IMG/VR virus record: IMGVR_UViG_3300017910_000855
Span: 1-54,565 of that record
Reading direction: 5' to 3' (one strand)
Length of the DNA: 54,565 nt
DNA from: a virus
Lineage: Duplodnaviria > Caudoviricetes
In this document: piece after piece, positions 12,221-54,565 of the stretch
Numbering within the stretch: the stretch's first letter is position 1
Layout: each line of letters starts with the position of its first letter
Program-made: the position numbers and the translations under genes
The notes under the pieces: model-generated
Seen by the model: only the letters and a program-made list of their open reading frames with translations
Databases searched by the model: none
Told to the model about the DNA's origin: nothing

Positions 12221-12230
12221 TATGTTTTAA

Positions 12231-12267
12231 AAGGGGGAGTGTCTTCAAAGACACTCCTACCTTTTTT
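12231..12267 (+). terminator. Intrinsic terminator after the capsid gene; its stem-loop is palindrome copy 2
   Basis: GGAGTGTCT-TCAA-AGACACTCC hairpin followed by TACCTTTTTT. Confidence 0.8.
12239..12254 (+). repeat. 16-bp palindrome copy 2 (intergenic)
   Basis: GTGTCTTCAAAGACAC. Confidence 0.97.
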
Positions 12268-12293
12268 ATTGTTTAAAATTAAATCGATTAAAA

Positions 12294-13031: not shown

Positions 13032-13051
13032 TGAATTAGTCTATTGTCAAG

Positions 13052-13082
13052 AAGGGGGGTTTAACGACCCCTCTTTTTTTTT
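13052..13082 (+). terminator. Intrinsic terminator
   Basis: GGGGGT-TTAACG-ACCCCT hairpin followed by T9. Confidence 0.8.
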
Positions 13083-13085
13083 GTG

Positions 13086-13093
13086 TATCTTTG
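13086..13093 (+). promoter_or_regulatory. Bacteroidota-type -7 promoter element TATCTTTG
   Basis: TAnnTTTG directly after the terminator, 18 nt before ATG 13111. Confidence 0.6.
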
Positions 13094-13110
13094 TAACAAA
13101 GTATTTACAG

Positions 13111-14070: not shown

Positions 14071-14076
14071 TAAACT

Positions 14077-15000: not shown

Positions 15001-15001
15001 T

Positions 15002-43254: not shown

Positions 43255-45661
43255 CTAATCTATTTTGAGTTGAAACTTCATCCTCTCTTTTAATTCTCAT
43301 CCACCTTCCTGTGTTATCTCTTCCCTCTTGTGGACTTGCTCCTGATTTGAATGTAGCAAACGCAGACATCCATTTGTTAAATCTAATCCTACTGATTGTA
43401 AGTTTAGCTTTGGGTCCGTAGTCAGGATACTGCTCTATGAAATCGAGATAAGCAGAAGATAAATTTATTTTAGTATCACGCTGCAGCAATGGGTTAGATT
43501 CGCTGCCATTAATTAATCCACACCACTCAATAAAATCGTGCGAAGTTTCTGCGGATAGTTGTCTAATCTTTAGGTTCACAAACTTGCTCTCTACTAATCC
43601 TGTAACTAAATAACCTTGTAGGCATTTAATCATATAGTTATCAAACGCACACCACTCATCATCATTCCAATCTCCAAAGAATAGTTTATTAAATTCGTCA
43701 AGCGGAGTATAGTTTTTATTGTAGTGTTGATGGAGTTCAAGTTCCCACTTTCGCCTCGCAAAAGAATTACCGCTACCTTTAATTGCATAGTTGGTAGTGA
43801 TAGCTATCTTCGGAGACTTTTCAAATGGTATCTTGATTGCATCTTTGTTTTTCTTTTCAAGTGTAAGTCCTTCGGTTACTACCGAAAACAATCTTTCAAA
43901 ATCAAAATGCTTTCTCACATCATCGAACACAAGTATCTGTGTGTCTGCTGATACAAGTTGGTATGCAAATGAACGCTCAAATGTAAAAGACTTTCCGTCA
44001 ATAGTTACAACCTTTTTCATCTGTGCTAATGCGTTCATAAAGATTCCTTTCCCTGTGCCTCCTTCGGGGTTGTCTGATATTACCTCATCATTTAATATCA
44101 CTGCCGGACAGTAAGATAAATTTTTATGACCGTGCATCAAGAAACCTATCGTTGATTCCATTGACTTAACTCTATCGTCTTCCCCTTTACATATGTTGCG
44201 GATGAATTTTTTATAGTCAGTGTCTGCTTCACACATAGTAAAGTTCCTGTCTATAACGTGGTCTTTCCAAACGTAACCACCCAAGTCAATGTAATCTATC
44301 ATCGTTATTTCTTTCTTAGTTACCTTGACTGCACAGTTTCTATAATACAAATACGAAGTGTCTTTGTTATCTTCTATAAAATAAATATCTATGGTAGATA
44401 GCAACGTAAGAAACTCTTCTTTAAAAAATCTTGTGTGGTCTGCAAAATAATTGTAGATAGATAAATCATCAATCTCAATGAGATGGTTTAAGATAAAATC
44501 TTTTATGGCTTTCTCGTCAGTGTGGTCTATAAGATTGTTGGTTACCTTGACAAACACATAGTTCTTACTGCCTTCAGGACAATACTTGTAGAAACCGTTG
44601 TCTTCTAAAAACTGTTTGAATAGAACGTGTATTACTTTTATTACACCCTTCTCATTCTTACTCCAAAACTGAGTCTCTTGTGCTTCTTCGTCTATACGAG
44701 TAAGCACTGCATCTATTACTTCGCCCTCCAAGTGAGACTCTTCGAGTTGAGAGCGGAGTTCTTTTTTTGATGCACCACGTTTGAGTTTTACTTTGAGATT
44801 CTGAACACGCTCCTCATCTTCATAATACTTTGTGCCAAAGTTGACGGTGTTAGCATATGCCGAGTCTATAGTTCTGTTGATTTCATTCTCGGTAAATCCT
44901 GATGCTTGATAGTTTGATAGTATGTATCCTGCTAACGATTTGTTTATTCCAAAATCATTGAAAGCTGATGCAAGTATAAAGCAGTTGTTGTTTCTGTTAC
45001 CCTCTGTCATTGGGTATTTTTTAGTCCACCACTTTACAAGTATCTCTACTATCTTGTTCTCGTCTGTAATAGGTATGGTTGGAACATCTCTATACTGATG
45101 CTTCTCTTGATACTCACGCTCCTCAATCTTATCCCATACTGATGAGTTCTCATTCACATAAATCAGAGGGTCATAAGATTCGTAACAAACACGTGATAAA
45201 TTTTTACAAGCTACATCAAACTTATCATTGTTAAAATGTTTCTGTAAACTATTGAAGTAGTTCACGTGGTTATCTACATCTTGAGGTATCTTTACTAATA
45301 CCTTGAGACCTTTCCCACTTGGAGATATAAATACTGAATAGGTATACGGAGACTTTGTTATGTTCTCCTTGTCCACTAATAGTTCTTTGCTTTTTTCGTA
45401 GCCGTCAAAATCTAAACATATCAAACCTGAATGTTCCTGTATAGAATTGTCGTTACGTTTTGTAAAGACTCCACTAAAACAGATTGCGGGTAACTGTTTC
45501 TTTAATTCGTTACGCACATCTTTCTTCTGTTCTAATCTAATTCGCTTCACTAATTCCTTTGAAGCACCGTTCTTTATCCTTTCTACTATATGCCCTACCT
45601 CTCGGTGGAAGGGAGCATCTGTCTCTTTAATGTTTCTAAATATCGTAATCTTTGATGTCAT
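43247..45661 (-). CDS. Primase-helicase (BT4734/VirE-N-like primase domain, PriCT-like domain, P-loop helicase)
   Basis: KKQLPAICFSG, SGLICLDFD, FISPSGKGLKVLV, EGNRNNNCF, EGGTGKG, LVFDD, ITTNY. Confidence 0.85.
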   Translation of the reverse strand: MTSKITIFRNIKETDAPFHREVGHIVERIKNGASKELVKRIRLEQKKDVRNELKKQLPAICFSGVFTKRNDNSIQEHSGLICLDFDGYEKSKELLVDKENITKSPYTYSVFISPSGKGLKVLVKIPQDVDNHVNYFNSLQKHFNNDKFDVACKNLSRVCYESYDPLIYVNENSSVWDKIEEREYQEKHQYRDVPTIPITDENKIVEILVKWWTKKYPMTEGNRNNNCFILASAFNDFGINKSLAGYILSNYQASGFTENEINRTIDSAYANTVNFGTKYYEDEERVQNLKVKLKRGASKKELRSQLEESHLEGEVIDAVLTRIDEEAQETQFWSKNEKGVIKVIHVLFKQFLEDNGFYKYCPEGSKNYVFVKVTNNLIDHTDEKAIKDFILNHLIEIDDLSIYNYFADHTRFFKEEFLTLLSTIDIYFIEDNKDTSYLYYRNCAVKVTKKEITMIDYIDLGGYVWKDHVIDRNFTMCEADTDYKKFIRNICKGEDDRVKSMESTIGFLMHGHKNLSYCPAVILNDEVISDNPEGGTGKGIFMNALAQMKKVVTIDGKSFTFERSFAYQLVSADTQILVFDDVRKHFDFERLFSVVTEGLTLEKKNKDAIKIPFEKSPKIAITTNYAIKGSGNSFARRKWELELHQHYNKNYTPLDEFNKLFFGDWNDDEWCAFDNYMIKCLQGYLVTGLVESKFVNLKIRQLSAETSHDFIEWCGLINGSESNPLLQRDTKINLSSAYLDFIEQYPDYGPKAKLTISRIRFNKWMSAFATFKSGASPQEGRDNTGRWMRIKREDEVSTQNRLDV

Positions 45662-45674
45662 AAATTTAAGTTTA

Positions 45675-45800
45675 GTGTCGACTTTGTGTCGACTTTGTGT
45701 TAAGTTTCTCGCTGAGTATCAGTGAGTTGCTTACTTTGTTAACTTTTTTCTATCGTATAAGAAAAAAAAATAAAATAGAAATAAGTAATATAAATAATAA
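45675..45800. other. Candidate replication origin/regulatory region
   Basis: Tandem GTGTCGACTTT x2 plus GTGT (45675-45700), IHF-consensus match TATCAGTGAGTTG (45717-45729), very AT-rich tract 45742-45800; upstream of the primase-helicase. Confidence 0.45.
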
Positions 45801-45829
45801 ATGGTCTGTTAACTCGTCACTCATAGGTC

Positions 45830-45857
45830 AAAAAAAGGGAGAGCCGAAGCTCCCCCC
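45830..45857 (-). terminator. Intrinsic terminator after ssb
   Basis: Minus strand GGGGGAGC-TTCG-GCTCTCCC followed by T7. Confidence 0.85.
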
Positions 45858-45876
45858 TCGTTATGAATAATACAAA

Positions 45877-46155
45877 TTAAAAAGGTAAGTCTACTTCTGC
45901 CTGACTTGCTTCAGTAACTTCTGCCTTTTTGTTTTCAGGTGTCCAAGTATCAAGCTCCATATATGGATTGCCACTCTTGGCATACTTGATGTTCATATTT
46001 ATCCACCCATTCTTTTGGTGTTTCTTCATAAAAGAAACCGCCTCGTCACATTTTACCGATACTCTACCGACTACAAAGTCAGGAGCATTATCTTGTCTTT
46101 TGAATGAGAAACCATCGGCAAAGATTTTCTCTTCGTTGTTTTGCACTTGTGCCAT
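45877..46155 (-). CDS. Single-stranded DNA-binding protein (phage type)
   Basis: Short OB-like body with acidic tail ending EVDLPF; next to recombination genes. Confidence 0.7.
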   Translation of the reverse strand: MAQVQNNEEKIFADGFSFKRQDNAPDFVVGRVSVKCDEAVSFMKKHQKNGWINMNIKYAKSGNPYMELDTWTPENKKAEVTEASQAEVDLPF

Positions 46156-46157
46156 AA

Positions 46158-46322
46158 TTAATTAATTATAATGTTACGTTCCAAAAAATATATTGTTGCC
46201 TTGATTATTTGTTTTTTCTCGGCACGAGTTTCACAAGTGTTTGGAACTTCCACTACGTGGACTCGTTTATTTTTAAATAGTCGTGTCTTCAAAGACACTA
46301 TTAGGTTTTTAAATTTCCTCAT
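46158..46322 (-). CDS. Small basic hypothetical protein
   Basis: Likely start MRKFKN at 46322. Confidence 0.5.
   Translation of the reverse strand: MRKFKNLIVSLKTRLFKNKRVHVVEVPNTCETRAEKKQIIKATIYFLERNIIIN
46283..46298 (+). repeat. 16-bp palindrome copy 8 (only copy antisense to local transcription; read as VSLKT)
   Basis: GTGTCTTCAAAGACAC on + strand within the minus-strand arm. Confidence 0.97.
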
Positions 46323-47070
46323 AGAAATAGTATTGGTTAATATCTTCCGTAGGATTCTCCCCAAAAAACTTTCGGTAAATCTCTACGGCTTTCTCAACCT
46401 TCTCTTTTCCCCTGTCTAAAGACTCTTGACTTACGGTGTAAGCACCCATCATTAGACTTGTTTTATCTATAACAAGGAACATCATCGGCTTATTAAATAA
46501 AGTCGAATAGATATACGCTTGACTATCGTAATTATACTTACGAAAATTCCAACGAAAGTCATTAATGTTTCCTGTTGTTTTAAGGTCAAAGAGAAAGTCT
46601 TTCCCTACGATGTCTGCTTTTCCTTTCCAAACTTCCCCGCAAATTTCACTGATGGCGGGTACTTCGTAGGTATTTTTGTCGTCTGCAATATAGTTAAAAA
46701 AGTCGAAATTAGTTTTCATAGCTTCAACCCAACGCTCGACCTCATCTTTTTCTCTTTGCAGTAACGCAAAGTTTCTCGGTCTGTTACTGTTAGCTTGTAA
46801 CTCTGCAACATACTCCTTATACTTCTTTGTATTACGAGACGCTACGTCTATGAAATCCCACTCTTCTGCCTTAGATGGTTCTAAAAACAATTGATGGAAG
46901 TATCTACCCATTGCAAACTCTTTGGTGTCTTCACGCTTTTGTCCAAACTCTTTTGGATTTTTAAGCAAGGTTCCAATGTCTGAATTAGATAGATACTTTC
47001 TGCCTATACCGTTGTAGTATTCGTTATCATCACGTAACAATTCTACTACTTGTTTATCCTGCACTGCCAT
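46309..47070 (-). CDS. RecE/exonuclease VIII-like PD-(D/E)xK exonuclease (DUF3799-like)
   Basis: YLSNSDI, GRYFHQLFLEP, WKGKADI...DLKTT, YNYDSQAYIY. Confidence 0.85.
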   Translation of the reverse strand: MAVQDKQVVELLRDDNEYYNGIGRKYLSNSDIGTLLKNPKEFGQKREDTKEFAMGRYFHQLFLEPSKAEEWDFIDVASRNTKKYKEYVAELQANSNRPRNFALLQREKDEVERWVEAMKTNFDFFNYIADDKNTYEVPAISEICGEVWKGKADIVGKDFLFDLKTTGNINDFRWNFRKYNYDSQAYIYSTLFNKPMMFLVIDKTSLMMGAYTVSQESLDRGKEKVEKAVEIYRKFFGENPTEDINQYYFYEEI

Positions 47071-47072
47071 AA

Positions 47073-47600
47073 TTAAATGTGCTTTTTGATTTCTGCTTTC
47101 GCAAGATTAGGTATAGAATACTTTTGTTGAAGAGTCTTGACTATCTTGGTTAGACCCATAGACTTGTTAGCTACAACCCACTTCATTACTTTATCCCAAT
47201 TCTCATCTCCAATATCTAATTTGATTTTGCTTGGTGTCTTTGAAGACACTGAGTCTTGGTTGGCTATAGCATTCTTAACTTCATCTGCTGAGGCAACTGA
47301 TGTTTCGAGTCCGATACCAAAGTTTGCTAACGCTCTACCCCACGCTGAGGTCTCGCAGTTCTCTACATAAGATGTCTTATTAATAAAGGTACTTCCCTTC
47401 TCTTCCTCTGCCATTCCTGTGGCGATTACTTTTCCTTCATCGTCAGAAATTGTAGCAAGTATAAGGATTGATTTGTCTGTCTTCTCTAACACTTCTGATG
47501 TTAGTGAATAGTTTGGGTAAGTCTTTCTAAAATAGATGAGTCTCTCGTTTACTTCAACGTACTCTTTACCCTTGATGTTTACTGTTTTTAATTTAGTCAT
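47073..47600 (-). CDS. Single-strand annealing protein (Rad52/Sak-like)
   Basis: IKGKEYVEVNERL, ATGMAEE, ENCETSAWGRALANFGIG; adjacent to exonuclease and SSB. Confidence 0.75.
   Translation of the reverse strand: MTKLKTVNIKGKEYVEVNERLIYFRKTYPNYSLTSEVLEKTDKSILILATISDDEGKVIATGMAEEEKGSTFINKTSYVENCETSAWGRALANFGIGLETSVASADEVKNAIANQDSVSSKTPSKIKLDIGDENWDKVMKWVVANKSMGLTKIVKTLQQKYSIPNLAKAEIKKHI
47234..47249 (-). repeat. 16-bp palindrome copy 9 (coding linker, VSSKT)
   Basis: GTGTCTTTGAAGACAC on + strand. Confidence 0.97.
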
Positions 47601-48027
47601 TTGATATTAGATTTAATTTTGATTTTATTTTACTGTATCTCTCCAAGATATTTTGTCGAGACATTTTTAAGGATTGAATTTGTTTAGGATTCTTCCTACC
47701 ATTCATTTCCTTTTTAATTGACCGCTCAACTTTATCAAGTTTTATACGATAGTTAGACAAAGATAATTCATAGACTCCAAACCTCCAACCTTTTTGTAGA
47801 AAAACTTCAAGCAAATCAAAGTCTACAGGTTTGTACCACTCTCCACCCAATGCGGTGTTAAGTATCTTTATTTCCTTTGTCTCGTTATCTTGCATAATCT
47901 TACATCCATATAAGATTCTTGCCTGATAGCCATCGCCATCCACGTTCACAGAAAACTCATCTGTGATGGCTTGTTCCATTACATCGTCTAAGCAATACTT
48001 ATGCAAGTTCTCTGCAAATAGTGTCAT
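47593..48027 (-). CDS. Hypothetical protein
   Basis: Start uncertain; MTLFAEN at 48027 chosen to limit overlap. Confidence 0.6.
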   Translation of the reverse strand: MTLFAENLHKYCLDDVMEQAITDEFSVNVDGDGYQARILYGCKIMQDNETKEIKILNTALGGEWYKPVDFDLLEVFLQKGWRFGVYELSLSNYRIKLDKVERSIKKEMNGRKNPKQIQSLKMSRQNILERYSKIKSKLNLISND

Positions 48028-48286
48028 AGTCCATATCTTCTGATACCTTGTCAGATACCTGTTCGATTCCGTGAATGATTGATGAATGTCCAACCTTGTA
48101 TCCATAGTCTTCCATATACTCCTGTATGTATCTGATTTGCATAGGTCGGTGGTAACATAGATAGTATAACAGATGCCTTGCATCTACCAAGTCTCTACGT
48201 TTTGATTTAGTGAATATCTCTTCTTCGGTTATGTTAAATGTGTTTAACACACGTTCAAGGTATTCATTGAATACTCCTTTTTTCAT
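47999..48286 (-). CDS. Second DnaA domain IV-like HTH protein
   Basis: EEIFTKSKRRDLVDARHLLYYLC...HSSIIHGI. Confidence 0.75.
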   Translation of the reverse strand: MKKGVFNEYLERVLNTFNITEEEIFTKSKRRDLVDARHLLYYLCYHRPMQIRYIQEYMEDYGYKVGHSSIIHGIEQVSDKVSEDMDYDTICRELA

Positions 48287-48486
48287 AGCTTATTATTATT
48301 GTTGCAAAAGATTTTACCGAACGTAACAAATAAGTCGTTCAGTTCATCTATTGCAGAATTAGAATTGTGATTTTCTTTTGTGTGAAGTTCCGACATCCAT
48401 TCATTAAACTGATATGAGTCGTCTATAAATGAGTCGTGATTCTCCTGTTCACGCATCTGCGTAAACATCTCTTTTGATTTTGACAT
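48283..48486 (-). CDS. Hypothetical protein
   Basis: MSKSKEMFTQMRE; preceded by a promoter-like element. Confidence 0.65.
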   Translation of the reverse strand: MSKSKEMFTQMREQENHDSFIDDSYQFNEWMSELHTKENHNSNSAIDELNDLFVTFGKIFCNNNNKL

Positions 48487-48506
48487 AACTATAATGTTTG
48501 ATTGAG

Positions 48507-48538
48507 TAAATATAATGATTGTTTATTTATTGTGCAAA
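48507..48538 (-). promoter_or_regulatory. Putative Bacteroidota sigma-A promoter (variant -7)
   Basis: Minus strand TTTG-N20-TATATTTA. Confidence 0.5.
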
Positions 48539-48813
48539 TCTTTTTGATTCTTTCTTATCTGCACTTTCAATAAAAGCAGGTATCCAATTAAGTCAGACAC
48601 CGTGTCTTCGGTTGCGTCAGTTATTCCACGCATCTTAATACGAGAAAGTTTATCGTCTATCCTCGCACACAACCCTTCCACTGCATCCAACTTACTGAAT
48701 ATCTTTGGTGGATTGTTAGCCGTATCGCCATATGCTTTATTCTTTTCAATGAGTAGCATTACTATTTTTCGTGCCTCATCTTTTATCAGGTCAGCCGTCT
48801 TACTCATTGCCAT
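48523..48813 (-). CDS. DUF1599/nucleotide-modification-associated domain 1-like protein
   Basis: EKNKAYGD, ARIDDKLSRI, EDTVSDLIGYLLL. Confidence 0.75.
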   Translation of the reverse strand: MAMSKTADLIKDEARKIVMLLIEKNKAYGDTANNPPKIFSKLDAVEGLCARIDDKLSRIKMRGITDATEDTVSDLIGYLLLLKVQIRKNQKDLHNK

Positions 48814-49150
48814 AATATGTATTAAAGACAACCTCTTCCAACAATGGTAGTTCAGTAGACACTGCGTCTCCTGTTTCTGTAACTGTCCACCAATCTCCAT
48901 TCTTTAGCAACTGAATGTATCGGTTTCCAATGTACATCATCACTTGCGTACAGTCTTCACTAACCGTTCCTTTCTGCTCAAAGTTTTCGAAGAAATCCTT
49001 TTTGGTTATGAGTCTTCCTGTGTCTTTGAAGACACTAAGTGTTAGCGGTTCGTCTTTGTCCGCTAATTGTTGCATCCTTTGGATGTAGTTTGTGTCTGCT
49101 TTACTGCGTAACTTTTCGGCAGTAGCTTCCTTTAAATAAATTGATTTCAT
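48800..49150 (-). CDS. Hypothetical protein
   Basis: 116 aa ORF with AT-rich leader. Confidence 0.7.
   Translation of the reverse strand: MKSIYLKEATAEKLRSKADTNYIQRMQQLADKDEPLTLSVFKDTGRLITKKDFFENFEQKGTVSEDCTQVMMYIGNRYIQLLKNGDWWTVTETGDAVSTELPLLEEVVFNTYYGNE
49020..49035 (-). repeat. 16-bp palindrome copy 10 (coding, VFKDT)
   Basis: GTGTCTTTGAAGACAC on + strand. Confidence 0.97.
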
Positions 49151-49151
49151 T

Positions 49152-49370
49152 TTAATTAAATTTTATATCTAAATTTAGATTGGTTATTAATATGTGTTCA
49201 AGCTCATCGTATGTGATATTGAAAAAGTCCTGTGCTTTATCCGTATAGATATAGGAGTCGTTTACTTTATCAAAAGTCCACGTGCTTTTCCCATATCTTT
49301 CTTGGGTTATGCGACTTGCAATTTCACTAACAACAGGAATGAAGTCCTCGTTATCAATAGTGTTTTTCAT
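49152..49370 (-). CDS. Hypothetical protein
   Basis: Likely start MKNTID at 49370. Confidence 0.65.
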   Translation of the reverse strand: MKNTIDNEDFIPVVSEIASRITQERYGKSTWTFDKVNDSYIYTDKAQDFFNITYDELEHILITNLNLDIKFN

Positions 49371-49375
49371 TTGAT

Positions 49376-49624
49376 TTAATTTTCTGAAGACCATTCTTTG
49401 TGCGTCATTACCAAGCAGTCTCCTACTATTACACGACCACACATTGCTGATACTTCAAGGTTCATAGGTAAATTTTCTAAGTGTCCTTCCTCGTTTACAA
49501 GTATTACCCAATCACTTGTATACACAGGTTCTATCCACCCACCAACTGCTTTCTGCTTTGCCTCAAGACCTGCATAATCGTAGTCGTTGATGGTTCTTCC
49601 GTCTGCTTTAATTATCCGTGCCAT
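49376..49624 (-). CDS. DUF3846-like protein
   Basis: QKAVGGWIEPV, LVNEEG...LPMN, IVGDCLV. Confidence 0.75.
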   Translation of the reverse strand: MARIIKADGRTINDYDYAGLEAKQKAVGGWIEPVYTSDWVILVNEEGHLENLPMNLEVSAMCGRVIVGDCLVMTHKEWSSEN

Positions 49625-49767
49625 AACTCATCCTCCTTCATTTGTTCTTCAACGTCATCAAGGTGTGCGTTGACGGTGCGTACTACGTGCAATGGCACGT
49701 TCACTAACTTCTCAACTGTTCCGTCATCGAATTTTATTTCGATGTTCCAAGCAACTATCGTTTTCAT
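49612..49767 (-). CDS. Small hypothetical protein (51 aa, absent from ORF track)
   Basis: MKTIVAWNIEIKFDDGTVEKLVNVPLHVVRTVNAHLDDVEEQMKEDELWHG*; fills the gap with overlaps on both sides. Confidence 0.65.
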   Translation of the reverse strand: MKTIVAWNIEIKFDDGTVEKLVNVPLHVVRTVNAHLDDVEEQMKEDELWHG

Positions 49768-50048
49768 AAGTGACCTCCTATCTCTAATTTATCACAATCA
49801 AATCTCCATTCTGATTCTGATTCAGGTTCATTCATAAATGATTTGTTGTGGTCATTAGCATCATCATCTGTTCCGAAGCCATACTCGTATGTTGCTTCGT
49901 TCATTGCGTTATCTATCTTATCGACATACAAATCTTCATTATCCCATAAGTATTCGATTAACTGTGCCGAGTTTAAGTTTTCAGGCACGTCTATTTCTAC
50001 CGATGCAAATTTGTGGTAGACACTGCGTTGTTGTATTCTAACTTTCAT
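49764..50048 (-). CDS. Acidic hypothetical early protein
   Basis: Likely start MKVRIQ at 50048, downstream of a promoter. Confidence 0.7.
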   Translation of the reverse strand: MKVRIQQRSVYHKFASVEIDVPENLNSAQLIEYLWDNEDLYVDKIDNAMNEATYEYGFGTDDDANDHNKSFMNEPESESEWRFDCDKLEIGGHL

Positions 50049-50071
50049 TTGATTTAAGTTTAATGTTTGTT

Positions 50072-50103
50072 CAAAGATAGTACAAAGTTTTGAACTATCC
50101 AAA
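50072..50103 (-). promoter_or_regulatory. Bacteroidota sigma-A promoter
   Basis: Minus strand TTTG-N20-TATCTTTG, matching the -33/-7 consensus. Confidence 0.8.
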
Positions 50104-50406
50104 TTTTATATCCGTGAGTTTGACCCACCAATGTCCGTCAATGATTTTCTTATTCGCTTGACTCCACCATTGTGTCTTTGAAGACACTGACTTAGGTAGG
50201 TATCCAACTTCGATTCCTATCTTCAACCCCAACTTCAGTGCCTCATCAATCTCATCGTGCGACTCAATCAGTGAGTCGGTATCATCATCGTGAATAACGT
50301 ACAACTCGTGACCGAGCCATATCTCTTCACGTTTTTTCTCTCCCTGTTTCATTTGGTCAGTAACGTCTAACCAAACGAACCTGTCTTTAGATAAATGTAT
50401 TGCCAT
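50095..50406 (-). CDS. Hypothetical early protein
   Basis: 103 aa ORF coupled to the upstream gene. Confidence 0.7.
   Translation of the reverse strand: MAIHLSKDRFVWLDVTDQMKQGEKKREEIWLGHELYVIHDDDTDSLIESHDEIDEALKLGLKIGIEVGYLPKSVSSKTQWWSQANKKIIDGHWWVKLTDIKFG
50172..50187 (-). repeat. 16-bp palindrome copy 11 (coding, VSSKT)
   Basis: GTGTCTTTGAAGACAC on + strand. Confidence 0.97.
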
Positions 50407-50648
50407 TACTCATCCCATTTTAATTCCAACTCGTAGTCGTCTGTTGCAACTTGGTCTATCGTTTGAAAGATTTGCTCCGTAATCCAATCGTTGCTCAGTG
50501 CGTCTTTTAATACTCCCATTGCTACTTCGGAGTCGCATTTGTAATTCTGCGTCACATCTTGCAAGTGCCACAGAGAAAAGGTTTGAAACCCACGCACCTC
50601 TAACTCTTTGCGTAAGTCGTGCGTTGATACTGATTTTAAATTTTCCAT
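50406..50648 (-). CDS. Hypothetical early protein
   Basis: Likely start MENLKS at 50648; the longer ORF-track start runs into the ribozyme. Confidence 0.7.
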   Translation of the reverse strand: MENLKSVSTHDLRKELEVRGFQTFSLWHLQDVTQNYKCDSEVAMGVLKDALSNDWITEQIFQTIDQVATDDYELELKWDE

Positions 50649-50666
50649 AATGTATGATTTAAGATT

Positions 50667-50717
50667 TCTGTTTCTGTCTTTTGACTTCATCAGCACGGAC
50701 ACACATCCGTGAACAGA
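50667..50717 (-). ncRNA. Hammerhead ribozyme, type III, variant (HH-B)
   Basis: Minus strand UCUG-U-U^-CACGGA[UGUGUG]UCCGUG-CUGAUGA-AGUC[AAAA]GACA-GAAA-CAGA; core intact; GUU triplet and A-A mismatch at the base of stem II. Confidence 0.8.
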
Positions 50718-50720
50718 GCA

Positions 50721-50736
50721 GTGTCTTTGAAGACAC
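50721..50736 (-). repeat. 16-bp palindrome copy 12 (intergenic, abutting ribozyme HH-B)
   Basis: GCAGTGTCTTTGAAGACACTGC, 50718-50739. Confidence 0.97.
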
Positions 50737-50747
50737 TGCCTTGCGGT

Positions 50748-51824
50748 TTAGGAGAAACGTAGCACCTCTTCTTGCCCAAACCAAGTATCACATCCATTGC
50801 AGTGATAGTTATTGAAACCGTCAAACTCCAAGTCGTGACAACAGTCAACACAAATAGGATTGTCGTTTGGATTGTAGTCGTCAGCAGACATATCATCAAA
50901 CAAATCAACCTGTGTGCAAGGTGGTGTGTCGTCAACAAAGTCAACTGTATCAACCCAACGTCTTGTTGGTGTAACAACCCTTTGGTAGTCTTTGATATGA
51001 TTACTACCATTCCATTCCTTTTCCTCTTGTGGATTGAAGTATATCCAAGCAGTGATGGTTTTGTTCTTCATCTTGATAGGTATCTGCTTTCTGCAGTACC
51101 ATTGTGGGTGTCCTTCCAATCCGTCTAACCTACGTAGAGTATCGTCTGATACTTTGAACACGTCTACAACTACGTTGTGACCTTTCCCTTTCTTCTCAAT
51201 CAGAAATGGGATACCACGTGATACCATTGGGTACTTGTCTTTGGTCTCGCCTTTTCCAAGATGCTTTGAATTAGTTAGGTAAGTGTAGTAGTTACCAAAC
51301 CCTTTCTTTAGTGTACCATACACCGCCACAACATTGCTTTGCAATACGTTGGTTTTCGAATACCATACTCCGTCTTTCAATGTATACAAATGCTTGTTGA
51401 AGATTTGAAACGAACGAGTACGGGTATTGATTGCCACGAAACGAGCATCGAACTTTGCCAACGATTGTTTCCAAGTGTGACGAGGAGAACGACCCAACTT
51501 GATAGCCAAGTCTTCTGTGTCTGTCATATTTTTGTTGCCGTAGCCACGAACGGTGCCGTTCATCATAAGCAACTCGTCTTTGTTGTTACCGCAGACGAAT
51601 GGGTGTGTGTTTTCCTTACAGATTTTACCAACCGTTGCATACCTGAAGTGTGCAATGTATGGTCTGTCGTTGTCCAACACACCGAACTCTTTTGATTGAT
51701 GATAGCTGACCTCGAACGTGTCGAGCCATACGATTCCCAATCCGTGAGGATTGATACGTGATGAATTTTTAAGTATCTCACGTGATACTGATTTACCTTT
51801 TTGTTTGATAATAATAATACACAT
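50748..51824 (-). CDS. Class II glutamine amidotransferase fused to gamma-glutamylcyclotransferase (AIG2-like) and a C-terminal Zn ribbon
   Basis: True start M-C-I-I (Ntn nucleophile Cys2) at 51824; NPHGLG, HFRYAT, HPF, NG, TDTE; VAVYGTLKKG, LDGLEGHP.WY.R; CVDC...CNGC. Confidence 0.9.
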   Translation of the reverse strand: MCIIIIKQKGKSVSREILKNSSRINPHGLGIVWLDTFEVSYHQSKEFGVLDNDRPYIAHFRYATVGKICKENTHPFVCGNNKDELLMMNGTVRGYGNKNMTDTEDLAIKLGRSPRHTWKQSLAKFDARFVAINTRTRSFQIFNKHLYTLKDGVWYSKTNVLQSNVVAVYGTLKKGFGNYYTYLTNSKHLGKGETKDKYPMVSRGIPFLIEKKGKGHNVVVDVFKVSDDTLRRLDGLEGHPQWYCRKQIPIKMKNKTITAWIYFNPQEEKEWNGSNHIKDYQRVVTPTRRWVDTVDFVDDTPPCTQVDLFDDMSADDYNPNDNPICVDCCHDLEFDGFNNYHCNGCDTWFGQEEVLRFS

Positions 51825-51844
51825 AGTGTTTGGTTTTGTGAGCA

Positions 51845-51860
51845 GTGTCTTTGAAGACAC
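51845..51860 (-). repeat. 16-bp palindrome copy 13 (5' leader between promoter and GATase start)
   Basis: GTGTCTTTGAAGACAC on + strand. Confidence 0.97.
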
Positions 51861-51888
51861 AGAACTCTGATTTAACATTTGATTTAAA

Positions 51889-51920
51889 CAAAGATACGAC
51901 TAAATTTAGACATATCCAAA
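51889..51920 (-). promoter_or_regulatory. Bacteroidota sigma-A promoter
   Basis: Minus strand TTTG-N20-TATCTTTG; shares TTTGGATA with the 50072 promoter. Confidence 0.8.
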
Positions 51921-52082
51921 TTACCTACTGACAACTGCAGTAAATTTATTTCTGACTATCCATTTGTACGTGCCTACATTTTCATTGTAGATTTTGTCAA
52001 TGGCTTCCCATTTCGTGTGAGCAGGTACAACTTTGATTAGCTTACCTGCATACCTTACTTTAAAATATCTCATCGCTTCCAT
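51921..52082 (-). CDS. Small hypothetical protein (53 aa, absent from ORF track)
   Basis: MEAMRYFKVRYAGKLIKVVPAHTKWEAIDKIYNENVGTYKWIVRNKFTAVVSR*; TAATG coupling. Confidence 0.7.
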   Translation of the reverse strand: MEAMRYFKVRYAGKLIKVVPAHTKWEAIDKIYNENVGTYKWIVRNKFTAVVSR

Positions 52083-52249
52083 TACAATTCAAATAATTCA
52101 TCAAGCAAGTAACCTTTGGTTCTGTTGATGTAGTTAATAAAATTGTCGCAATGATTCTTGTCGTTGAACTCTTTGGTCACGACCCACTCGCCACGATTAT
52201 TTCCGTACGAGACTTGTCCTGTCTTGAAGACTAATTGAACTTTGTACAT
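52082..52249 (-). CDS. Small hypothetical early protein
   Basis: Likely start MYKVQL at 52249 after an A-rich leader; the longer ORF-track start overlaps the ribozyme. Confidence 0.7.
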   Translation of the reverse strand: MYKVQLVFKTGQVSYGNNRGEWVVTKEFNDKNHCDNFINYINRTKGYLLDELFEL

Positions 52250-52268
52250 AACTTTTAATTTAATGTTT

Positions 52269-52330
52269 GACATAGAGGTAGTGTCTTTGAAGACACCACC
52301 TTTCGGGTATTCAACCCTCATCAGTATGCC
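52269..52330 (-). ncRNA. Hammerhead ribozyme, type I (HH-C); stem III is the 16-bp palindrome
   Basis: Minus strand GGCAUA-CUGAUGA-GGGU[UGAAU]ACCC-GAAA-GGUGGUGUCU[UCAA]AGACACUACC-U-C^-UAUGUC; all three stems pair, canonical core, CUC triplet. Confidence 0.88.
52281..52296 (-). repeat. 16-bp palindrome copy 14 (inside ribozyme HH-C)
   Basis: GTGTCTTTGAAGACAC on + strand. Confidence 0.97.
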
Positions 52331-52548
52331 TATACTCGGTCTGCTTTCCAACCTTGATAGATTAGTGAAAAGATAACTCCACTAATGAACAACAAGAACA
52401 TTCCAACGAACCCTACATACACCCACTGATACCACACAAAAGTATGTTGTGATATGATGTGAATGAATAAACGTAGCACCATTGATAGAACTCCGATGGC
52501 AACGATTGTTGTTACTGACTTTTCGATTGTGTTAACTAAATTTCTCAT
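52330..52548 (-). CDS. Small two-TM membrane protein flanked by ribozymes
   Basis: Likely start MRNLVN at 52548 (72 aa); two hydrophobic helices. Confidence 0.7.
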   Translation of the reverse strand: MRNLVNTIEKSVTTIVAIGVLSMVLRLFIHIISQHTFVWYQWVYVGFVGMFLLFISGVIFSLIYQGWKADRV

Positions 52549-52575
52549 AATGTTTGATATTAAAATTATTTGTTT

Positions 52576-52626
52576 CCTGTTTCGACCTTTTGGTCTCATC
52601 AGCACAAGCACTCACTTGTGGACAGG
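52576..52626 (-). ncRNA. Hammerhead ribozyme, type III (HH-A)
   Basis: Minus strand CCUG-U-C^-CACAAG[UGAGUG]CUUGUG-CUGAUGA-GACC[AAAA]GGUC-GAAA-CAGG; fully canonical core, GUC triplet, G10.1-C11.1. Confidence 0.93.
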
Positions 52627-52647
52627 GGGAGCATTCGCTCCCTCTCA

Positions 52648-53667
52648 TTATCTCAACCCTTTGGATTGTATTTCCTCTCGGAACTTAGCGAGAGCGATGT
52701 CACTCTCGTCAACTCCACGTTTGATGTATGTACCCCAAACTTGTCGGTTACCGCTCATTGAAAGTCGGTTTGGTCTTCCGCTCCACCACTTTTCGAACCA
52801 ACCGATTGTGCTTTGCTCCACACGACCTGTCTTGACGAACTTGTGAAAGTCTTTTGCCAACTCAATGACCGCATCGGTCTTGGTCTCGTTCTTGTCGTAC
52901 ATTCCCATAAGGATTGGTCTGACTGCATTCCAAAACCCTCGTATGCTCTTGCCATTGACCCCATAGTCAAGTATTAAGTACATTAGCTCGTAACGTCTCA
53001 TCAACTGCTTTACTGACTGCACTCTGCTCGGTATACGGAACTCGATACACTCGTCAACGATTTTGCAAACAGAGTATTTTACTACTCGCTCTTGATGTCT
53101 CTCGAAACGGAACTCACTCATCATTCTTGGATTCCACTTGCAGTAGTGATTCGACAAACGATGTCTGAACACTGACAACAGGATTGATGCATATGGAGCA
53201 ACTTTGTCAGCCAACTCTTGACCTGTCAACCCCTTACAAGCAACTGTGATGTGACCACCGCAACTGCTATCGCTCGGACTGAACTCATCATTGATGATGT
53301 GCTTGGCTTCAACAAACATATTGAACACCTTTGTTCGCCACATTGACTTACCTACCAAAGGTAGAACGTGTGTGACTGCTTCATAACCGCAACTACTATC
53401 AGTCTCAAACCCACAAAATAATGGGTACTCCTTGATTGAACTCCTGTGCAACCTCGTTTTCTCGATTTCAAAACCGATAGTGAACTTGCTCTCGAACTCG
53501 TCTCCGTCTACAACAACATTGGTTCTGTCTGTAGATTGCAACCCTTTGATTTCAGATTGCTTTGCTTTGGTTCTGAAGATTGGACTTGGTTTGCTATGGT
53601 ATGATGATACACTACCACGTCTGTCTGTGTCTCTGATTTCTTCGAACCTTGTTACTAAATTATTCAT
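52648..53667 (-). CDS. Putative amidoligase (COOH-NH2 ligase, glutamine synthetase-like fold)
   Basis: TIGFEIEK, ETDSSCGYEAVT, DSSCGGHITV, IEFRIP. Confidence 0.8.
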   Translation of the reverse strand: MNNLVTRFEEIRDTDRRGSVSSYHSKPSPIFRTKAKQSEIKGLQSTDRTNVVVDGDEFESKFTIGFEIEKTRLHRSSIKEYPLFCGFETDSSCGYEAVTHVLPLVGKSMWRTKVFNMFVEAKHIINDEFSPSDSSCGGHITVACKGLTGQELADKVAPYASILLSVFRHRLSNHYCKWNPRMMSEFRFERHQERVVKYSVCKIVDECIEFRIPSRVQSVKQLMRRYELMYLILDYGVNGKSIRGFWNAVRPILMGMYDKNETKTDAVIELAKDFHKFVKTGRVEQSTIGWFEKWWSGRPNRLSMSGNRQVWGTYIKRGVDESDIALAKFREEIQSKGLR

Positions 53668-53683
53668 TGTGCTACGTGTTTTT

Positions 53684-53699
53684 GTGTCTTTGAAGACAC
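53684..53699 (-). repeat. 16-bp palindrome copy 15 (intergenic, 16 nt before amidoligase start)
   Basis: GTGTCTTTGAAGACAC on + strand. Confidence 0.97.
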
Positions 53700-53702
53700 T
53701 GA

Positions 53703-54347
53703 TTAATTATTGATTTGATTAAACCTTTCAACCATTTGGTCATTCAGTTTTGTAAACAACTCTACGATGAGGTTATCGGTGTTGTTGTCTTCACAAACTC
53801 CACTCATCTTGATACCGCTCTCGGTTAGTCTGATAGAGAAACCGCTATCGCCATTGATTCCGTCTTTCGCAAGACTGAATGTTGCAAAGGTTTTCTCTCT
53901 TGAAACTTCGGTGTCTTCGCCACTGATTTCTGCTTTCGCAAACTTCAATAGACTCTCGATACTTCTGTTAGCGTCTTCGCCATTGTTCTCTGCTTTTGTG
54001 CATTCTCTTTTGAACTTCGTAACGATTCTTTGGTTTTCTTCTTGCAGTTTACCCGCCTTGACCATTTTGTAACCGAACGACTTTTGCCAACCGAATACCC
54101 TGTTGAAAAAGACTTCTGTGTTACTCCATTCGATACCATTGTCTTCGAGCAGTGTCTTGGTCTCGCTTGACTTGAACCACTCGACTGATTGGCTAACTAA
54201 CTTCGCTAACTTTAGCGACTTGTCGAACTTCGACTTCTTTGCATCGGCAACCTCACTCTGTAGATTGAAGATTGACTGAAAGTTTACATTCGAACGTACT
54301 TCGGCAGAGGTTAAAAAGTCTGCCTCGATTTGCATTAAATTACTCAT
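53703..54347 (-). CDS. First gene of the early arm; hypothetical protein with a possible HTH-like segment
   Basis: 214 aa; helical segment WSNTEVFFNRVFGWQKSFGYKMVKAG. Confidence 0.75.
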   Translation of the reverse strand: MSNLMQIEADFLTSAEVRSNVNFQSIFNLQSEVADAKKSKFDKSLKLAKLVSQSVEWFKSSETKTLLEDNGIEWSNTEVFFNRVFGWQKSFGYKMVKAGKLQEENQRIVTKFKRECTKAENNGEDANRSIESLLKFAKAEISGEDTEVSREKTFATFSLAKDGINGDSGFSIRLTESGIKMSGVCEDNNTDNLIVELFTKLNDQMVERFNQINN

Positions 54348-54408
54348 AACTTGTTGATTTTAAATTAATTACGTTTAATTGAGGATTATTCCTCGTTCAT
54401 TACTTGTG

Positions 54409-54438
54409 TAAATATAGTCTTTTTCTGCATTCCCACAA
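54409..54438 (-). promoter_or_regulatory. Putative early promoter (variant -7)
   Basis: Minus strand TTG-N19-TATATTTA upstream of the first early gene. Confidence 0.55.
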
Positions 54439-54565
54439 GGGTTTTCTTTCATTTTTTTTCATCCTGTGTCTAATTCTCTTTTGTCTTTTGATTGTCAACA
54501 GGTTACGTCAAACGTGTTCCTTGTCTTTTGTATTGGCTCAAAAAATGTCGCTCAGGTGCTAAGGA

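What the first reader, a model, noticed from the sequence alone, without database searches (positions are those of the whole stretch)
52275..52620. Ribozyme-excised 346-nt RNA carrying one small membrane-protein gene; could circularise
Seen: the 72-aa two-TM gene (52330-52548) is bracketed by two co-oriented hammerheads. Predicted cuts release a 346-nt RNA, and HH-C to HH-B releases a 1563-nt RNA. Established: 5'-OH plus 2',3'-cyclic phosphate ends are RtcB substrates, and tandem hammerheads generate circular RNAs in retrozymes. Inference: the phage may make a stable linear or circular mini-mRNA for a membrane protein, for example a superinfection-exclusion or host-takeover factor.
Basis: inference. 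Interest (0 to 1): 0.8.

Follow-up and report, generated by a model that had tools for sequence, protein, structure and literature searches.

The report
Hammerhead-bounded small phage mRNA
Two genuine self-cutting hammerhead RNAs bracket a small membrane-protein gene in a marine phage and most likely cut out a linear, hairpin-capped single-gene message, a known kind of phage arrangement; nothing found supports a circular RNA.

Summary
On the minus strand there is a type III hammerhead at 52573-52628, cutting at 52621|52620. A type I hammerhead at 52267-52332 cuts at 52275|52274. They bracket a 72-aa, two-TM gene (52330-52548), and the piece between the cuts is 346 nt. A third, variant type III hammerhead (50664-50719) gives the 1563-nt piece. 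My scan found 83 hammerheads on coding strands of the window and 41 related loci, 0 on opposite strands and 0 in 20 shuffles. Stems covary, and no ribozyme lies inside a long ORF.

Most likely the ribozymes cut the early polycistronic transcript into gene-length mRNAs. Each upstream product ends in a stable hairpin. The 346-nt unit keeps both ribozyme bodies as structured end caps.

Circularisation is unsupported. The joined ends would rebuild neither ribozyme, and no conserved helix pairs the ends. Five of 11 homologous TM genes sit in multi-gene units. The phage has no RtcB, the host is unknown, and the RNA runs were uninformative.

Perreault et al. 2011 described hammerheads flanking single phage genes and looked for circles without finding any. 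This scan has noted hairpin-plus-hammerhead phage cassettes before on other DNA. I class this as a new member of a known kind.

The parts
52627..52642 (-). Hairpin GGGAGC-GAAU-GCUCCC, 4 nt after the stop codon (52648-52650) of the 339-aa gene and flush against stem III of the type III hammerhead. It becomes the 3'-terminal hairpin of the upstream product.
   Evidence: Sequence; fold of 52573-52650. 50 of 61 distinct type III copies in relatives have such a hairpin, against 6.2% of 600 random 39-mers.
52573..52628 (-). Type III hammerhead. H17 = C at 52621; the cut falls between 52621 and 52620.
   Evidence: Hand reading; scan; R1 77.4 bits; minimum-energy fold equals the hammerhead fold, z -2.98; covariation in A1.
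52275..52620 (-). Predicted 346-nt excised RNA: 5'-OH, stem I and II hairpins of the type III ribozyme, a 27-nt A/U-rich leader, the 72-aa ORF, the whole type I ribozyme body, then a 2',3'-cyclic phosphate.
   Evidence: Cut sites. Homologous units of 346 nt (L004), 349 nt (L015) and 335 nt (L009, L010). Fold z -3.5. The end chemistry follows from the established hammerhead mechanism and is not shown here.
52330..52548 (-). Gene for a 72-aa protein with two hydrophobic helices. It belongs to a conserved syntenic family.
   Evidence: ORF; hydropathy; alignment A3, 16-71% identity over 10 relatives; no Pfam, PHROG or Atlas assignment.
52267..52332 (-). Type I hammerhead. Its first three bases are the UAG stop codon of the 72-aa gene. 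Stem III contains the genome-wide palindrome (52283-52298). C17 is at 52275; the cut falls between 52275 and 52274.
   Evidence: Hand reading; R2 70.1 bits; minimum-energy fold equals the hammerhead fold, z -4.16; covariation in A2.
50712..52274 (-). Predicted 1563-nt next unit. It carries two small ORFs and the GATase-II/GGACT gene (Met-Cys start at 51824; stop at 50748).
50664..50719 (-). Variant type III hammerhead with a GUU cleavage site and A.A at positions 10.1-11.1. It is preceded flush by the palindrome hairpin at 50718-50739. The cut falls between 50712 and 50711.
   Evidence: (73.5 bits). The same variant sits at the orthologous site in L002, L011 and L014.

Best explanation
The window is a whole uncultured marine phage of about 55 kb, related to podophages of Flavobacteriaceae. 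Its minus-strand early arm is probably read as one long transcript from about 54.4 kb leftwards.

Three self-cleaving hammerheads sit in three intergenic gaps around the amidoligase-like gene, the small TM gene and the GATase/GGACT gene. They cut this transcript as it is made. Each cut does two things. It leaves the upstream RNA ending in a stable hairpin plus a 2',3'-cyclic phosphate, which substitutes for a terminator and should shield the end from 3' exonucleases. It also gives the downstream RNA a 5'-OH end and a fixed leader. That leader is a structured ribozyme body followed by about 20 unstructured A/U-rich nt after a type III element, or about 22 nt (possibly almost none) after a type I element.

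The 346-nt piece is therefore a linear, monocistronic mRNA for a conserved two-TM protein. Hairpins cap both ends, so its level and translation are uncoupled from its neighbours.

Shown here: the ribozyme folds, their covariation, their strand and intergenic placement, the hairpin coupling, and conservation of the unit. Inferred: cleavage in vivo, the polycistronic precursor, stabilisation, and that the product stays linear.
For: Real ribozymes: 83 coding-strand hits, 0 opposite-strand hits and 0 in 20 shuffles.

Type III alignment of 55 distinct sequences: 94.5% of cells paired against 70.6% in shuffles and 31-42% when slid. 12 of 15 pairs show double changes, and stem I shows them in 6 of 6 pairs.

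Type I alignment of 17 sequences: 100% of cells paired, 10 of 12 pairs with double changes, 26-38% when slid.

Model hits are 66 of 66 and 32 of 32 on the coding strand of 41 loci.

Placement: 0 of 85 distinct ribozymes lie inside a same-strand ORF of 100 aa or more. Type III copies start a median 33 nt after the previous stop and cut a median 70 nt before the next ATG. Type I copies overlap the previous stop (median -2) and cut a median 22.5 nt before the next ATG.

Hairpin coupling: 50 of 61 against 6.2%. In type I the long stem III is itself that hairpin.

No terminator-like site lies on the minus strand of 50000-54565. One promoter-like site sits upstream of the first gene, although overall site counts are not above shuffles.

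Unit conservation: the TM gene is alone between two cuts in 6 of 11 cases, in units of 335-380 nt.

Five relatives that are 94-100% complete each carry 3-4 hammerheads, all within 2.2-4.3 kb around this module.

Precedent: Perreault et al. 2011 (PMC3088659, passages read) saw hammerheads flanking single genes in prophages. They showed cleavage of three such arrays in vitro and of one in E. coli, and proposed processing into gene-length mRNAs.
Against: No RNA evidence at all. The two RNA runs that hold any of this phage are oligo-dT libraries kept as contigs, with scattered pieces 90-99% alike and nothing interpretable over 52275-52620.

Cleavage was not assayed.

The alignments used for covariation were picked by a filter that demands pairing, so the percentage paired is inflated. 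The strand bias, shuffles and slid controls do not depend on that filter.

Rfam's own thresholds are not met in the window.

The 50.7-kb copy has A.A at 10.1-11.1. I found no activity data for this; Perreault reports the U.U variant as active.

Stabilisation by 5'-OH, cyclic phosphate and hairpins is inferred from general RNA-decay knowledge, which has not been tested in Bacteroidota.

Hammerheads are absent from the rest of the early arm, so 'general punctuation' does not explain why only this module is cut.
Confidence: 0.65

Rival explanations
1. Circular mini-mRNA. After both cuts, a host RtcB-type ligase joins the 5'-OH and the 2',3'-cyclic phosphate of the 346-nt RNA, giving an exonuclease-proof circular message for the membrane protein.
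For: The end chemistry is the substrate of RtcB (established; passages of PMC8782182). Engineered ribozyme-flanked RNAs are designed for circularisation by RtcB (the Tornado design, as described in PMC10729303). RtcB occurs in 74 of 301 sampled genomes of the class that holds a Chitinophagaceae MAG, so a Bacteroidota host could have it (the tally includes one unpublished genome, G090). The size of the unit is conserved at 335-349 nt in five phages.
Against: The joined ends would rebuild neither ribozyme. For the type III element, position 16.2 would be C opposite C at 15.2; for the type I element, the 3' arm of stem I is lost. So there is no viroid/retrozyme-type self-ligation or monomer logic.

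No end-to-end pairing appears in the minimum-energy folds. The expected number of end pairs is 8.5 in the window but 0.8, 3.2 and 0.09 in three homologous units, so it is not conserved.

Unlike Tornado, the ribozymes stay on the excised RNA.

In 5 of 11 homologues the TM gene shares its unit with other genes, and in L012 and L024 no ribozyme follows it.

The phage has no RtcB and the host is unknown.

Perreault et al. looked for circular or spliced products of prophage arrays and detected none (data not shown).

No back-joint appeared in the laid runs, but these are contigs and weak evidence.
Confidence: 0.06
2. 3'-end formation for the upstream genes is the selected function. The hairpin-plus-ribozyme unit acts as a factor-independent terminator substitute, and the 346-nt piece is a by-product of two such ends lying close together.
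For: The hairpin is flush with the cut in 50 of 61 type III copies and is built into every type I copy. No U-tract terminators lie on this strand. The type at a given boundary is interchangeable: type I, type III or none after the TM gene, and type I in L027 against type III elsewhere after the GATase gene.
Against: This differs from the main explanation only in emphasis. It does not explain the conserved loop nucleotides or the fixed leader length downstream. Palindrome hairpins without ribozymes also occur, at 51847 and 53686, so a hairpin alone is evidently used elsewhere.
Confidence: 0.17
3. The ribozymes are marks of a mobile or selfish gene module. The hammerhead-bounded cassettes would move between phages through RNA or recombination, with no benefit for expression.
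For: The hammerheads cluster only around the amidoligase / TM / GATase-GGACT module in six genomes. Gene content between cuts varies among relatives.
Against: No reverse transcriptase or integrase was seen among the early-arm proteins scanned. Ribozymes at orthologous sites covary like vertically inherited elements. Nothing shows cassette transposition.
Confidence: 0.05
4. One or more of the hammerheads is catalytically dead, so no 346-nt RNA is made.
For: Sub-threshold Rfam scores. The 50.7-kb copy has A.A at 10.1-11.1.
Against: Both elements that bound the 346-nt piece have every core nucleotide and G10.1-C11.1. Helices are kept by compensatory changes across dozens of phages. One family member passes Rfam's Hammerhead_3 cut-off, 48.7 against 48.5 bits.
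Confidence: 0.04

Closest known systems
Clustered hammerheads flanking single genes or short gene blocks in prophages and phages (Perreault et al. 2011, PMC3088659; passages read)
   Same: Several hammerheads of mixed types lie on the coding strand and bracket individual genes whose identity varies. The proposed role is processing of long phage transcripts into gene-length mRNAs. U10.1-U11.1 variants occur. The circular or spliced product idea was already raised there.
   Different: Here the host range is marine Flavobacteriaceae podophages. The cluster is confined to one module (amidoligase-like / 2-TM / GATase-GGACT). Most type III copies are fused to an upstream hairpin. Type I copies contain the upstream stop codon. 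I did not see hairpin coupling in the passages I read; the figures and supplements, which may show it, were not seen.
Retrozymes and viroid-like circular RNAs with hammerheads (Cervera et al. 2016, PMC4918200; search listing and abstract only)
   Same: Two co-oriented hammerheads excise an RNA of a few hundred nt with 5'-OH and cyclic-phosphate ends.
   Different: Retrozymes use the same hammerhead type in direct repeats, so the circle regains a whole ribozyme, and they are non-coding (recalled from knowledge of the family). Here the two ribozymes are of different types, the junction rebuilds neither, and the RNA is a plain mRNA in a DNA phage.
Tornado-type engineered circularisation by flanking ribozymes plus RtcB (Litke and Jaffrey 2019, recalled; described in PMC10729303, passages)
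   Same: Flanking self-cleaving ribozymes generate RtcB-compatible ends on an insert.
   Different: In Tornado the ribozymes are cut off and a stem brings the ends together (recalled). Here both ribozyme bodies stay on the excised RNA, and no conserved closing stem exists.
RiboJ-type ribozyme insulators of synthetic biology (Lou et al. 2012; recalled, not read here)
   Same: A hammerhead at the 5' end of a cistron removes the variable upstream RNA and leaves a fixed, structured 5'-OH leader. This works like the type III element before the TM gene.
   Different: RiboJ is an engineered part. The natural elements here also create the 3' end of the preceding message.
Hammerheads in UTRs and intergenic regions of fungal and plant RNA viruses (PMC13725137; passages)
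   Same: A type I hammerhead fills a short intergenic region and cuts a few nt before the next start codon (7 nt in PtFV1). Compare 1 nt or 25 nt here.
   Different: Those are eukaryotic RNA viruses where cap-independent translation is at stake, not a DNA phage of bacteria.

Membership tests
Hammerhead ribozyme (Rfam clan CL00010) | Conserved core: C3 U4 G5 A6 N7 G8 A9, G12 A13 A14, A15.1-U16.1, and H17 that is not G | tested here: met
   All three window copies carry it. H17 is C, C and U.
Hammerhead ribozyme (Rfam clan CL00010) | Three helices around the core, maintained by compensatory changes | tested here: met
   12 of 15 and 10 of 12 pairs show changes on both sides; slid controls give 26-42% paired. 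Caveat: the sequences were chosen by a pairing filter.
Hammerhead ribozyme (Rfam clan CL00010) | G10.1-C11.1 closing pair of stem II | tested here: inconclusive
   Met in the two copies that bound the 346-nt RNA. A.A in the 50.7-kb copy. 24 of 55 type III relatives have A.A or U.U. U.U is reported active (PMC3088659).
Hammerhead ribozyme (Rfam clan CL00010) | Score at or above Rfam's gathering threshold | tested here: not met
   0 hits in the window; 21.5 against 48.5 bits in E-value mode. Among the 16 loci searched (140,317 nt), only one hammerhead, L034:2225-2277, passes, at 48.7 bits.
Hammerhead ribozyme (Rfam clan CL00010) | Site-specific self-cleavage | not testable with these tools
   Needs in vitro transcription or end mapping.
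Retrozyme / viroid-like hammerhead circRNA | The excised monomer regains a complete hammerhead when its ends are joined | tested here: not met
   The junction ...CCUC|CACAAG... gives C-C at 15.2-16.2 for the type III element and lacks the type I stem I 3' arm.
Retrozyme / viroid-like hammerhead circRNA | Circular RNA detected (back-joined reads, RNase R resistance) | tested here: inconclusive
   No back-joint in 4 laid runs, but all are contigs and the RNA runs barely cover the phage.
RtcB-dependent circularisation (Tornado-like) | A ligase is available in phage or host | tested here: inconclusive
   None in the phage. The host is unknown. RtcB is present in 74 of 301 sampled genomes of a Bacteroidota class.
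RtcB-dependent circularisation (Tornado-like) | A helix that brings the two ends together | tested here: not met
   No 5'-3' pairing in the minimum-energy folds of four homologous units; ensemble end-pairing is not conserved.
Phage holin | Small TM protein encoded next to the endolysin | tested here: not met
   The lysis pair lies on the other arm: Amidase_2 at 2098-2532 and a GTA_holin_3TM protein at 2517-2924. The 72-aa gene sits in the early arm.

The most novel reading that the evidence does not exclude
The two different hammerheads release a 346-nt message that a host RtcB ligase closes into a circle that cannot be re-cleaved. Because the junction rebuilds neither ribozyme, the circle would be stable. 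The phage would thus make a circular, translatable mRNA for an early membrane protein, which would be a first natural circular mRNA in a bacterial virus.
Probability: 0.05. Interest if true: 0.85.

Novelty: new member of a known kind. Interest (0 to 1): 0.38.

Why it matters
What phage hammerheads are for has been open since they were found in 2011. This family offers a compact test case:
- three to four ribozymes tied to one gene module;
- a conserved unit of about 340 nt holding one small gene;
- a consistent hairpin-then-cut design;
- a cultured relative with a known host (Flavobacterium phage vB_FspP_elemoE_6-9C on Flavobacterium sp. BAL314) that carries family members.

Simple RNA end mapping in that system would show whether such ribozymes act as protein-free mRNA punctuation and 3'-end makers in Bacteroidota, where translation and RNA decay signals differ from E. 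coli. The circular-RNA idea would matter much more, but nothing here favours it.

Tried and rejected
Rfam: the gathering scan of the whole window gave 0 hits. The E-value scan of the whole window gave 8 weak hits, none of them a hammerhead. A 451-nt scan gave Hammerhead_3 at 21.5 bits in a wrong register. I therefore relied on my own scan and models.

INPHARED blastn of 50000-54565 gave no match.

RNA evidence: the look-up of sequencing runs listed 18 runs holding at least half of the sampled words of 44600-54565. None of these is on record as RNA (14 are listed as DNA, four are of unrecorded kind). The two oligo-dT RNA runs hold only 6-7% of the words. Laying X19, X20, X9 and X14 gave only short scattered RNA contigs and no usable cover or back-joint at 52275-52620, and contigs cannot show ends. 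No conclusion was drawn from this.

Function of the 72-aa protein: no Pfam or PHROG family. The ESM Atlas best score was 0.86, below the 0.9 lead level.

Host rtcB: the host is unknown. A class-level tally (74 of 301) says only that RtcB is neither rare nor universal. That tally includes unpublished genome G090.

MW202828.1 37651-56538, the nearest deposited relative, has no hit with either model.

Holin reading rejected: the lysis pair is elsewhere.

The 89-aa and 93-aa versions of the ORF start at the AUG inside CUGAUGA or at a GTG inside stem I. I treat these as spurious extensions, because relatives align from the MRNL/MKTL start.

Supplements of PMC3088659 (alignments, figures S1-S8) could not be seen. 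They may already contain members of this family or the hairpin feature.
Full report
WHAT IS THERE

The window is a complete IMG/VR virus record (54,565 bp, linear, about 90% complete). Genes run on the plus strand up to about 39.1 kb and on the minus strand from there to the right end.

Reading the minus strand between 52650 and 52260 gives, in order:
- the TAA stop of a 339-aa gene (52650-52648);
- a hairpin GGGAGC-GAAU-GCUCCC (52642-52627);
- a type III hammerhead: stem III CCUGU/ACAGG, C17 at 52621, stem I CACAAG/CUUGUG with loop UGAGUG, CUGAUGA, stem II GACC-AAAA-GGUC, GAAAC;
- 27 A/U-rich nt;
- a 72-aa ORF (52548-52330);
- a type I hammerhead whose first three bases are that ORF's UAG: stem I GGCAUA/UAUGUC, CUGAUGA, stem II GGGU-UGAAU-ACCC, GAAA, an 11-bp stem III that contains the genome-wide palindrome, then U16.1 and C17 at 52275.

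The predicted cuts at 52621|52620 and 52275|52274 release exactly 346 nt. A third element at 50664-50719 is a type III hammerhead with a GUU site and A.A at 10.1-11.1. The piece from 52274 to 50712 is 1563 nt. Its label 'HH-C to HH-B' makes sense once its own naming is known (note e1-6285830).

IS IT MORE THAN CHANCE

Rfam does not call these elements. There are 0 hits at gathering thresholds. In E-value mode on 451 nt the only hit is a misregistered Hammerhead_3 match of 21.5 bits against a cut-off of 48.5.

I therefore wrote a scan for the core plus three helices. I applied it to both strands of the window and of 41 related loci fetched with the two neighbouring proteins.
- The window gave 3 hits on minus and 0 on plus.
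- The loci gave 80 hits on the coding strand and 0 on the other strand.
- Twenty dinucleotide shuffles of all 382,586 nt gave 0 each.

After removing duplicates there are 55 distinct type III and 17 distinct type I sequences.

For type III, 94.5% of pair cells are standard pairs, against 70.6% in column shuffles and 31-42% when partners are slid. 12 of 15 pairs change on both sides, and stem I does so in 6 of 6 pairs. For type I, 100% of cells pair and 10 of 12 pairs change on both sides, against 26-38% when slid. These sequences were selected by a pairing filter, so the percentage paired is inflated. The strand asymmetry, the shuffles and the variety of pair types are not affected by that.

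Covariance models R1 and R2 find only the three elements in the window: 77.4, 73.5 and 70.1 bits, with the next best at most 13.6 bits. The window copies were among the seeds. In the 41 loci, all 66 R1 hits and all 32 R2 hits are on the coding strand, including copies that were not in the seeds.

Each window element folds into the hammerhead junction as its minimum-energy structure. One family member, L034:2225-2277, passes Rfam's Hammerhead_3 cut-off at 48.7 against 48.5 bits. This ties the family to RF00008.

ANATOMY ACROSS RELATIVES

None of 85 distinct ribozymes lies inside a same-strand ORF of 100 aa or more.
- Type III copies begin a median 33 nt after the preceding stop codon and cut a median 70 nt before the next ATG.
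- Type I copies overlap the preceding stop (median -2) and cut a median 22.5 nt before the next ATG.

The 33-nt gap before type III copies is filled by a hairpin. In 50 of 61 distinct cases the 39 nt that end at stem III fold at -10 kcal/mol or better, against 6.2% of 600 random 39-mers (means -13.6 against -4.3). The hairpin usually ends flush with stem III. In type I copies the long stem III is that hairpin. Every cut therefore leaves an upstream RNA that ends in a hairpin plus a few nucleotides.

In the window the hairpin is the 16-nt palindrome at two of the three sites. The palindrome occurs 15 times in the genome and is oriented with transcription. Its sequence differs between phages while the stem is kept.

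No terminator-like site lies on the minus strand of 50000-54565. One promoter-like site sits upstream of the first gene of the arm, at 54412-54385. Overall counts of such sites are within the range seen in shuffles.

THE EXCISED UNIT

The 72-aa protein has two hydrophobic helices. It belongs to a syntenic family with 16-71% identity to ten relatives and shared N-terminal and C-terminal motifs.

Among these 11 genes:
- Six are alone between two cuts. The window, L004 and L015 have a type III then a type I boundary (346, 346 and 349 nt). L009, L010 and L041 have type III at both boundaries (335, 335 and 380 nt).
- Five share the unit with other ORFs: L002 (673 nt), L011 (1044 nt), L012 (2128 nt), L024 (2496 nt) and L019 (409 nt). 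In L012 and L024 no ribozyme follows the TM gene.

So a single-gene unit is common but not obligatory, and the type of the 3' boundary is interchangeable.

Five relatives that are 94-100% complete carry 3, 3, 4, 3 and 3 hammerheads. In each genome all of them lie within 2.2-4.3 kb around the amidoligase-like / TM / GATase-GGACT module. The window has the same pattern.

The 376-aa neighbour is a GATase-II-like plus GGACT fusion. The 339-aa neighbour matches no family in these libraries. The rest of the minus arm encodes replication and recombination proteins: a primase-type protein, an SNF2-type helicase and PD-(D/E)XK nucleases. I saw no RNA ligase or polymerase among the proteins scanned.

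HOW IT MOST LIKELY WORKS

The early arm is probably read through as one transcript, and the hammerheads cut it as it is made.

The type III element cuts at its own 5' edge, so it stays on the downstream RNA. The type I element cuts at its own 3' edge, so it stays on the upstream RNA. The 346-nt RNA therefore keeps both ribozyme bodies: two hairpins at its 5' end behind a 5'-OH, and two hairpins at its 3' end before a 2',3'-cyclic phosphate.

From general knowledge of bacterial RNA decay, such ends should resist 5'-end-dependent endonucleases and 3' exonucleases. This step is inferred, not shown.

The result would be a discrete linear mRNA for the TM protein, uncoupled from its neighbours. Functionally this resembles engineered ribozyme insulators (RiboJ, recalled). 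It matches the processing model proposed by Perreault et al. 2011 for hammerheads flanking single genes in prophages. They showed cleavage for three such arrays in vitro and for one in E. coli (PMC3088659, passages).

THE CIRCULAR READING

The end chemistry does fit RtcB (PMC8782182, passages). Engineered ribozyme-flanked RNAs are designed for RtcB circularisation (PMC10729303, passages). But the points I could test count against it.
- The joined ends (...CCUC|CACAAG...) rebuild neither hammerhead, so the retrozyme/viroid logic of a monomer that regains its ribozyme does not apply.
- Minimum-energy folds of four homologous units show no pairing between the ends. The ensemble end-pairing seen in the window (8.5 expected pairs) is not conserved (0.8, 3.2, 0.09).
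- The ribozymes stay on the RNA rather than being removed as in Tornado.
- The unit is not always monocistronic, and sometimes lacks the 3' ribozyme.
- The phage encodes no RtcB.
- The host is unknown. The capsid-like protein points to Flavobacteriaceae phages: Flavobacterium elemo phages 46%, Maribacter phage Panino 51%, and Cellulophaga phages. RtcB is present in only 74 of 301 sampled genomes of a Bacteroidota class (this includes unpublished G090).
- Perreault et al. state that they looked for spliced or circular products and found none (data not shown).
- The public RNA data reachable here could not address the question.

I put the circular form at about 5-6%.

COMPARISON AND NOVELTY

The elements are hammerheads by core, helices and covariation, although below Rfam's thresholds. 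The arrangement, with several mixed-type hammerheads bracketing individual phage genes, has been in print since 2011. The U.U 10.1-11.1 variant that is frequent in this family is also described there as active. I did not find the A.A variant of the 50.7-kb copy in the passages I read.

My literature searches found no paper on hammerheads in Flavobacteriaceae phages or on natural circular mRNAs in phages. Subscription papers and supplements were not searched.

This scan has itself noted the same kind of thing many times on other DNA: 274 notes in at least 263 genomes hold all six words of my search on phage hammerheads. They include a 'hairpin-plus-hammerhead mRNA cutter' cassette in another phage (e1-3444182) and a dense array in a 76-kb marine phage (e1-6061571).

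I therefore class this as a new member of a known kind. Its useful particulars are:
- the tie to one gene module;
- the hairpin-then-cut rule;
- the stop codon built into type I copies;
- a cultured relative that carries family members: NC_055854.1, type I at 16302-16363 (57.2 bits) and a type III-like copy at 18096-18153 (38.8 bits).

VERDICT

Interest is moderate (0.38), mainly because the system could make the old question of what phage hammerheads do directly testable.

Noticed in passing
window 5061, 12241, 25711, 33512, 39118, 41902, 43124, 46285, 47236, 49022, 50174, 50723, 51847, 52283, 53686: The 16-nt palindrome GTGTCTTCAAAGACAC (core counted) occurs 15 times, several times inside genes. 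Its asymmetric centre follows the direction of transcription in 14 of 15 copies. In related phages the hairpin at hammerhead sites has a different sequence but keeps the stem (for example GTCCG..CGGAC, GGTGTCC..GGACACC). This points to a hairpin that acts as RNA or single-stranded DNA rather than a fixed protein site.
   Followed up: partly
window 52271-52275; L002 5674-5678; L004 5340-5344; L015 3362-3366: In this subgroup the type I cut is followed by U-AUG, and that AUG is in frame with the downstream ORF in all four phages, although the downstream proteins are not alike. In L004 it is the only start candidate near the 5' end. Cleavage might therefore create a nearly leaderless mRNA. Other type I copies (GUC|UUAACC...) lack this AUG.
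   Followed up: partly
G303 43431-45585; G304 12492-14828; G305 33055-36524; G306 11925-15940; G307 51502-55799: In five near-complete relatives, all 3-4 hammerheads per genome lie within 2.2-4.3 kb around the amidoligase-like / small TM / GATase-GGACT module. None lies elsewhere. Why only this module is punctuated is unexplained.
   Followed up: partly
L043 (NC_055854.1) 16302-16363 and 18096-18153, minus strand: The cultured Flavobacterium phage vB_FspP_elemoE_6-9C carries a canonical type I hammerhead (57.2 bits) and a type III-like one (38.8 bits). The first lies under an annotated plus-strand 'hypothetical protein' (gp65, 16289-16396), which is probably a false gene call.
   Followed up: partly
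alignment A1, columns 35/46: 24 of 55 distinct type III copies have A.A or U.U instead of G10.1-C11.1. U.U goes with GUA sites and A.A with GUU or GUC sites, and the state is kept at orthologous positions. U.U is known to be active. A.A is untested as far as I read.
   Followed up: partly
Most are Saccharibacteria and other Patescibacteria MAGs, often with 2-3 copies within 8 kb.
   Followed up: no
window 2098-2924 and 25739-26554: A lysis pair lies on the late arm: an Amidase_2 endolysin and a GTA_holin_3TM-type holin. A 271-aa protein carries a crAss-type muzzle C-terminal domain.
   Followed up: no
window 52596-52611: The AUG inside the CUGAUGA core is in frame with the 72-aa gene. Mechanical ORF calls therefore give 89-93 aa versions that translate the ribozyme ('...RPKGRNRKQ...'). 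The same artefact appears in L009 and L010.
   Followed up: yes
window 49144-49365: One contig of RNA run X19 skips 220 nt here (depth 3.2, 146 nt on the shorter side). It is probably a deletion variant in a related phage rather than splicing. Not examined.
   Followed up: no
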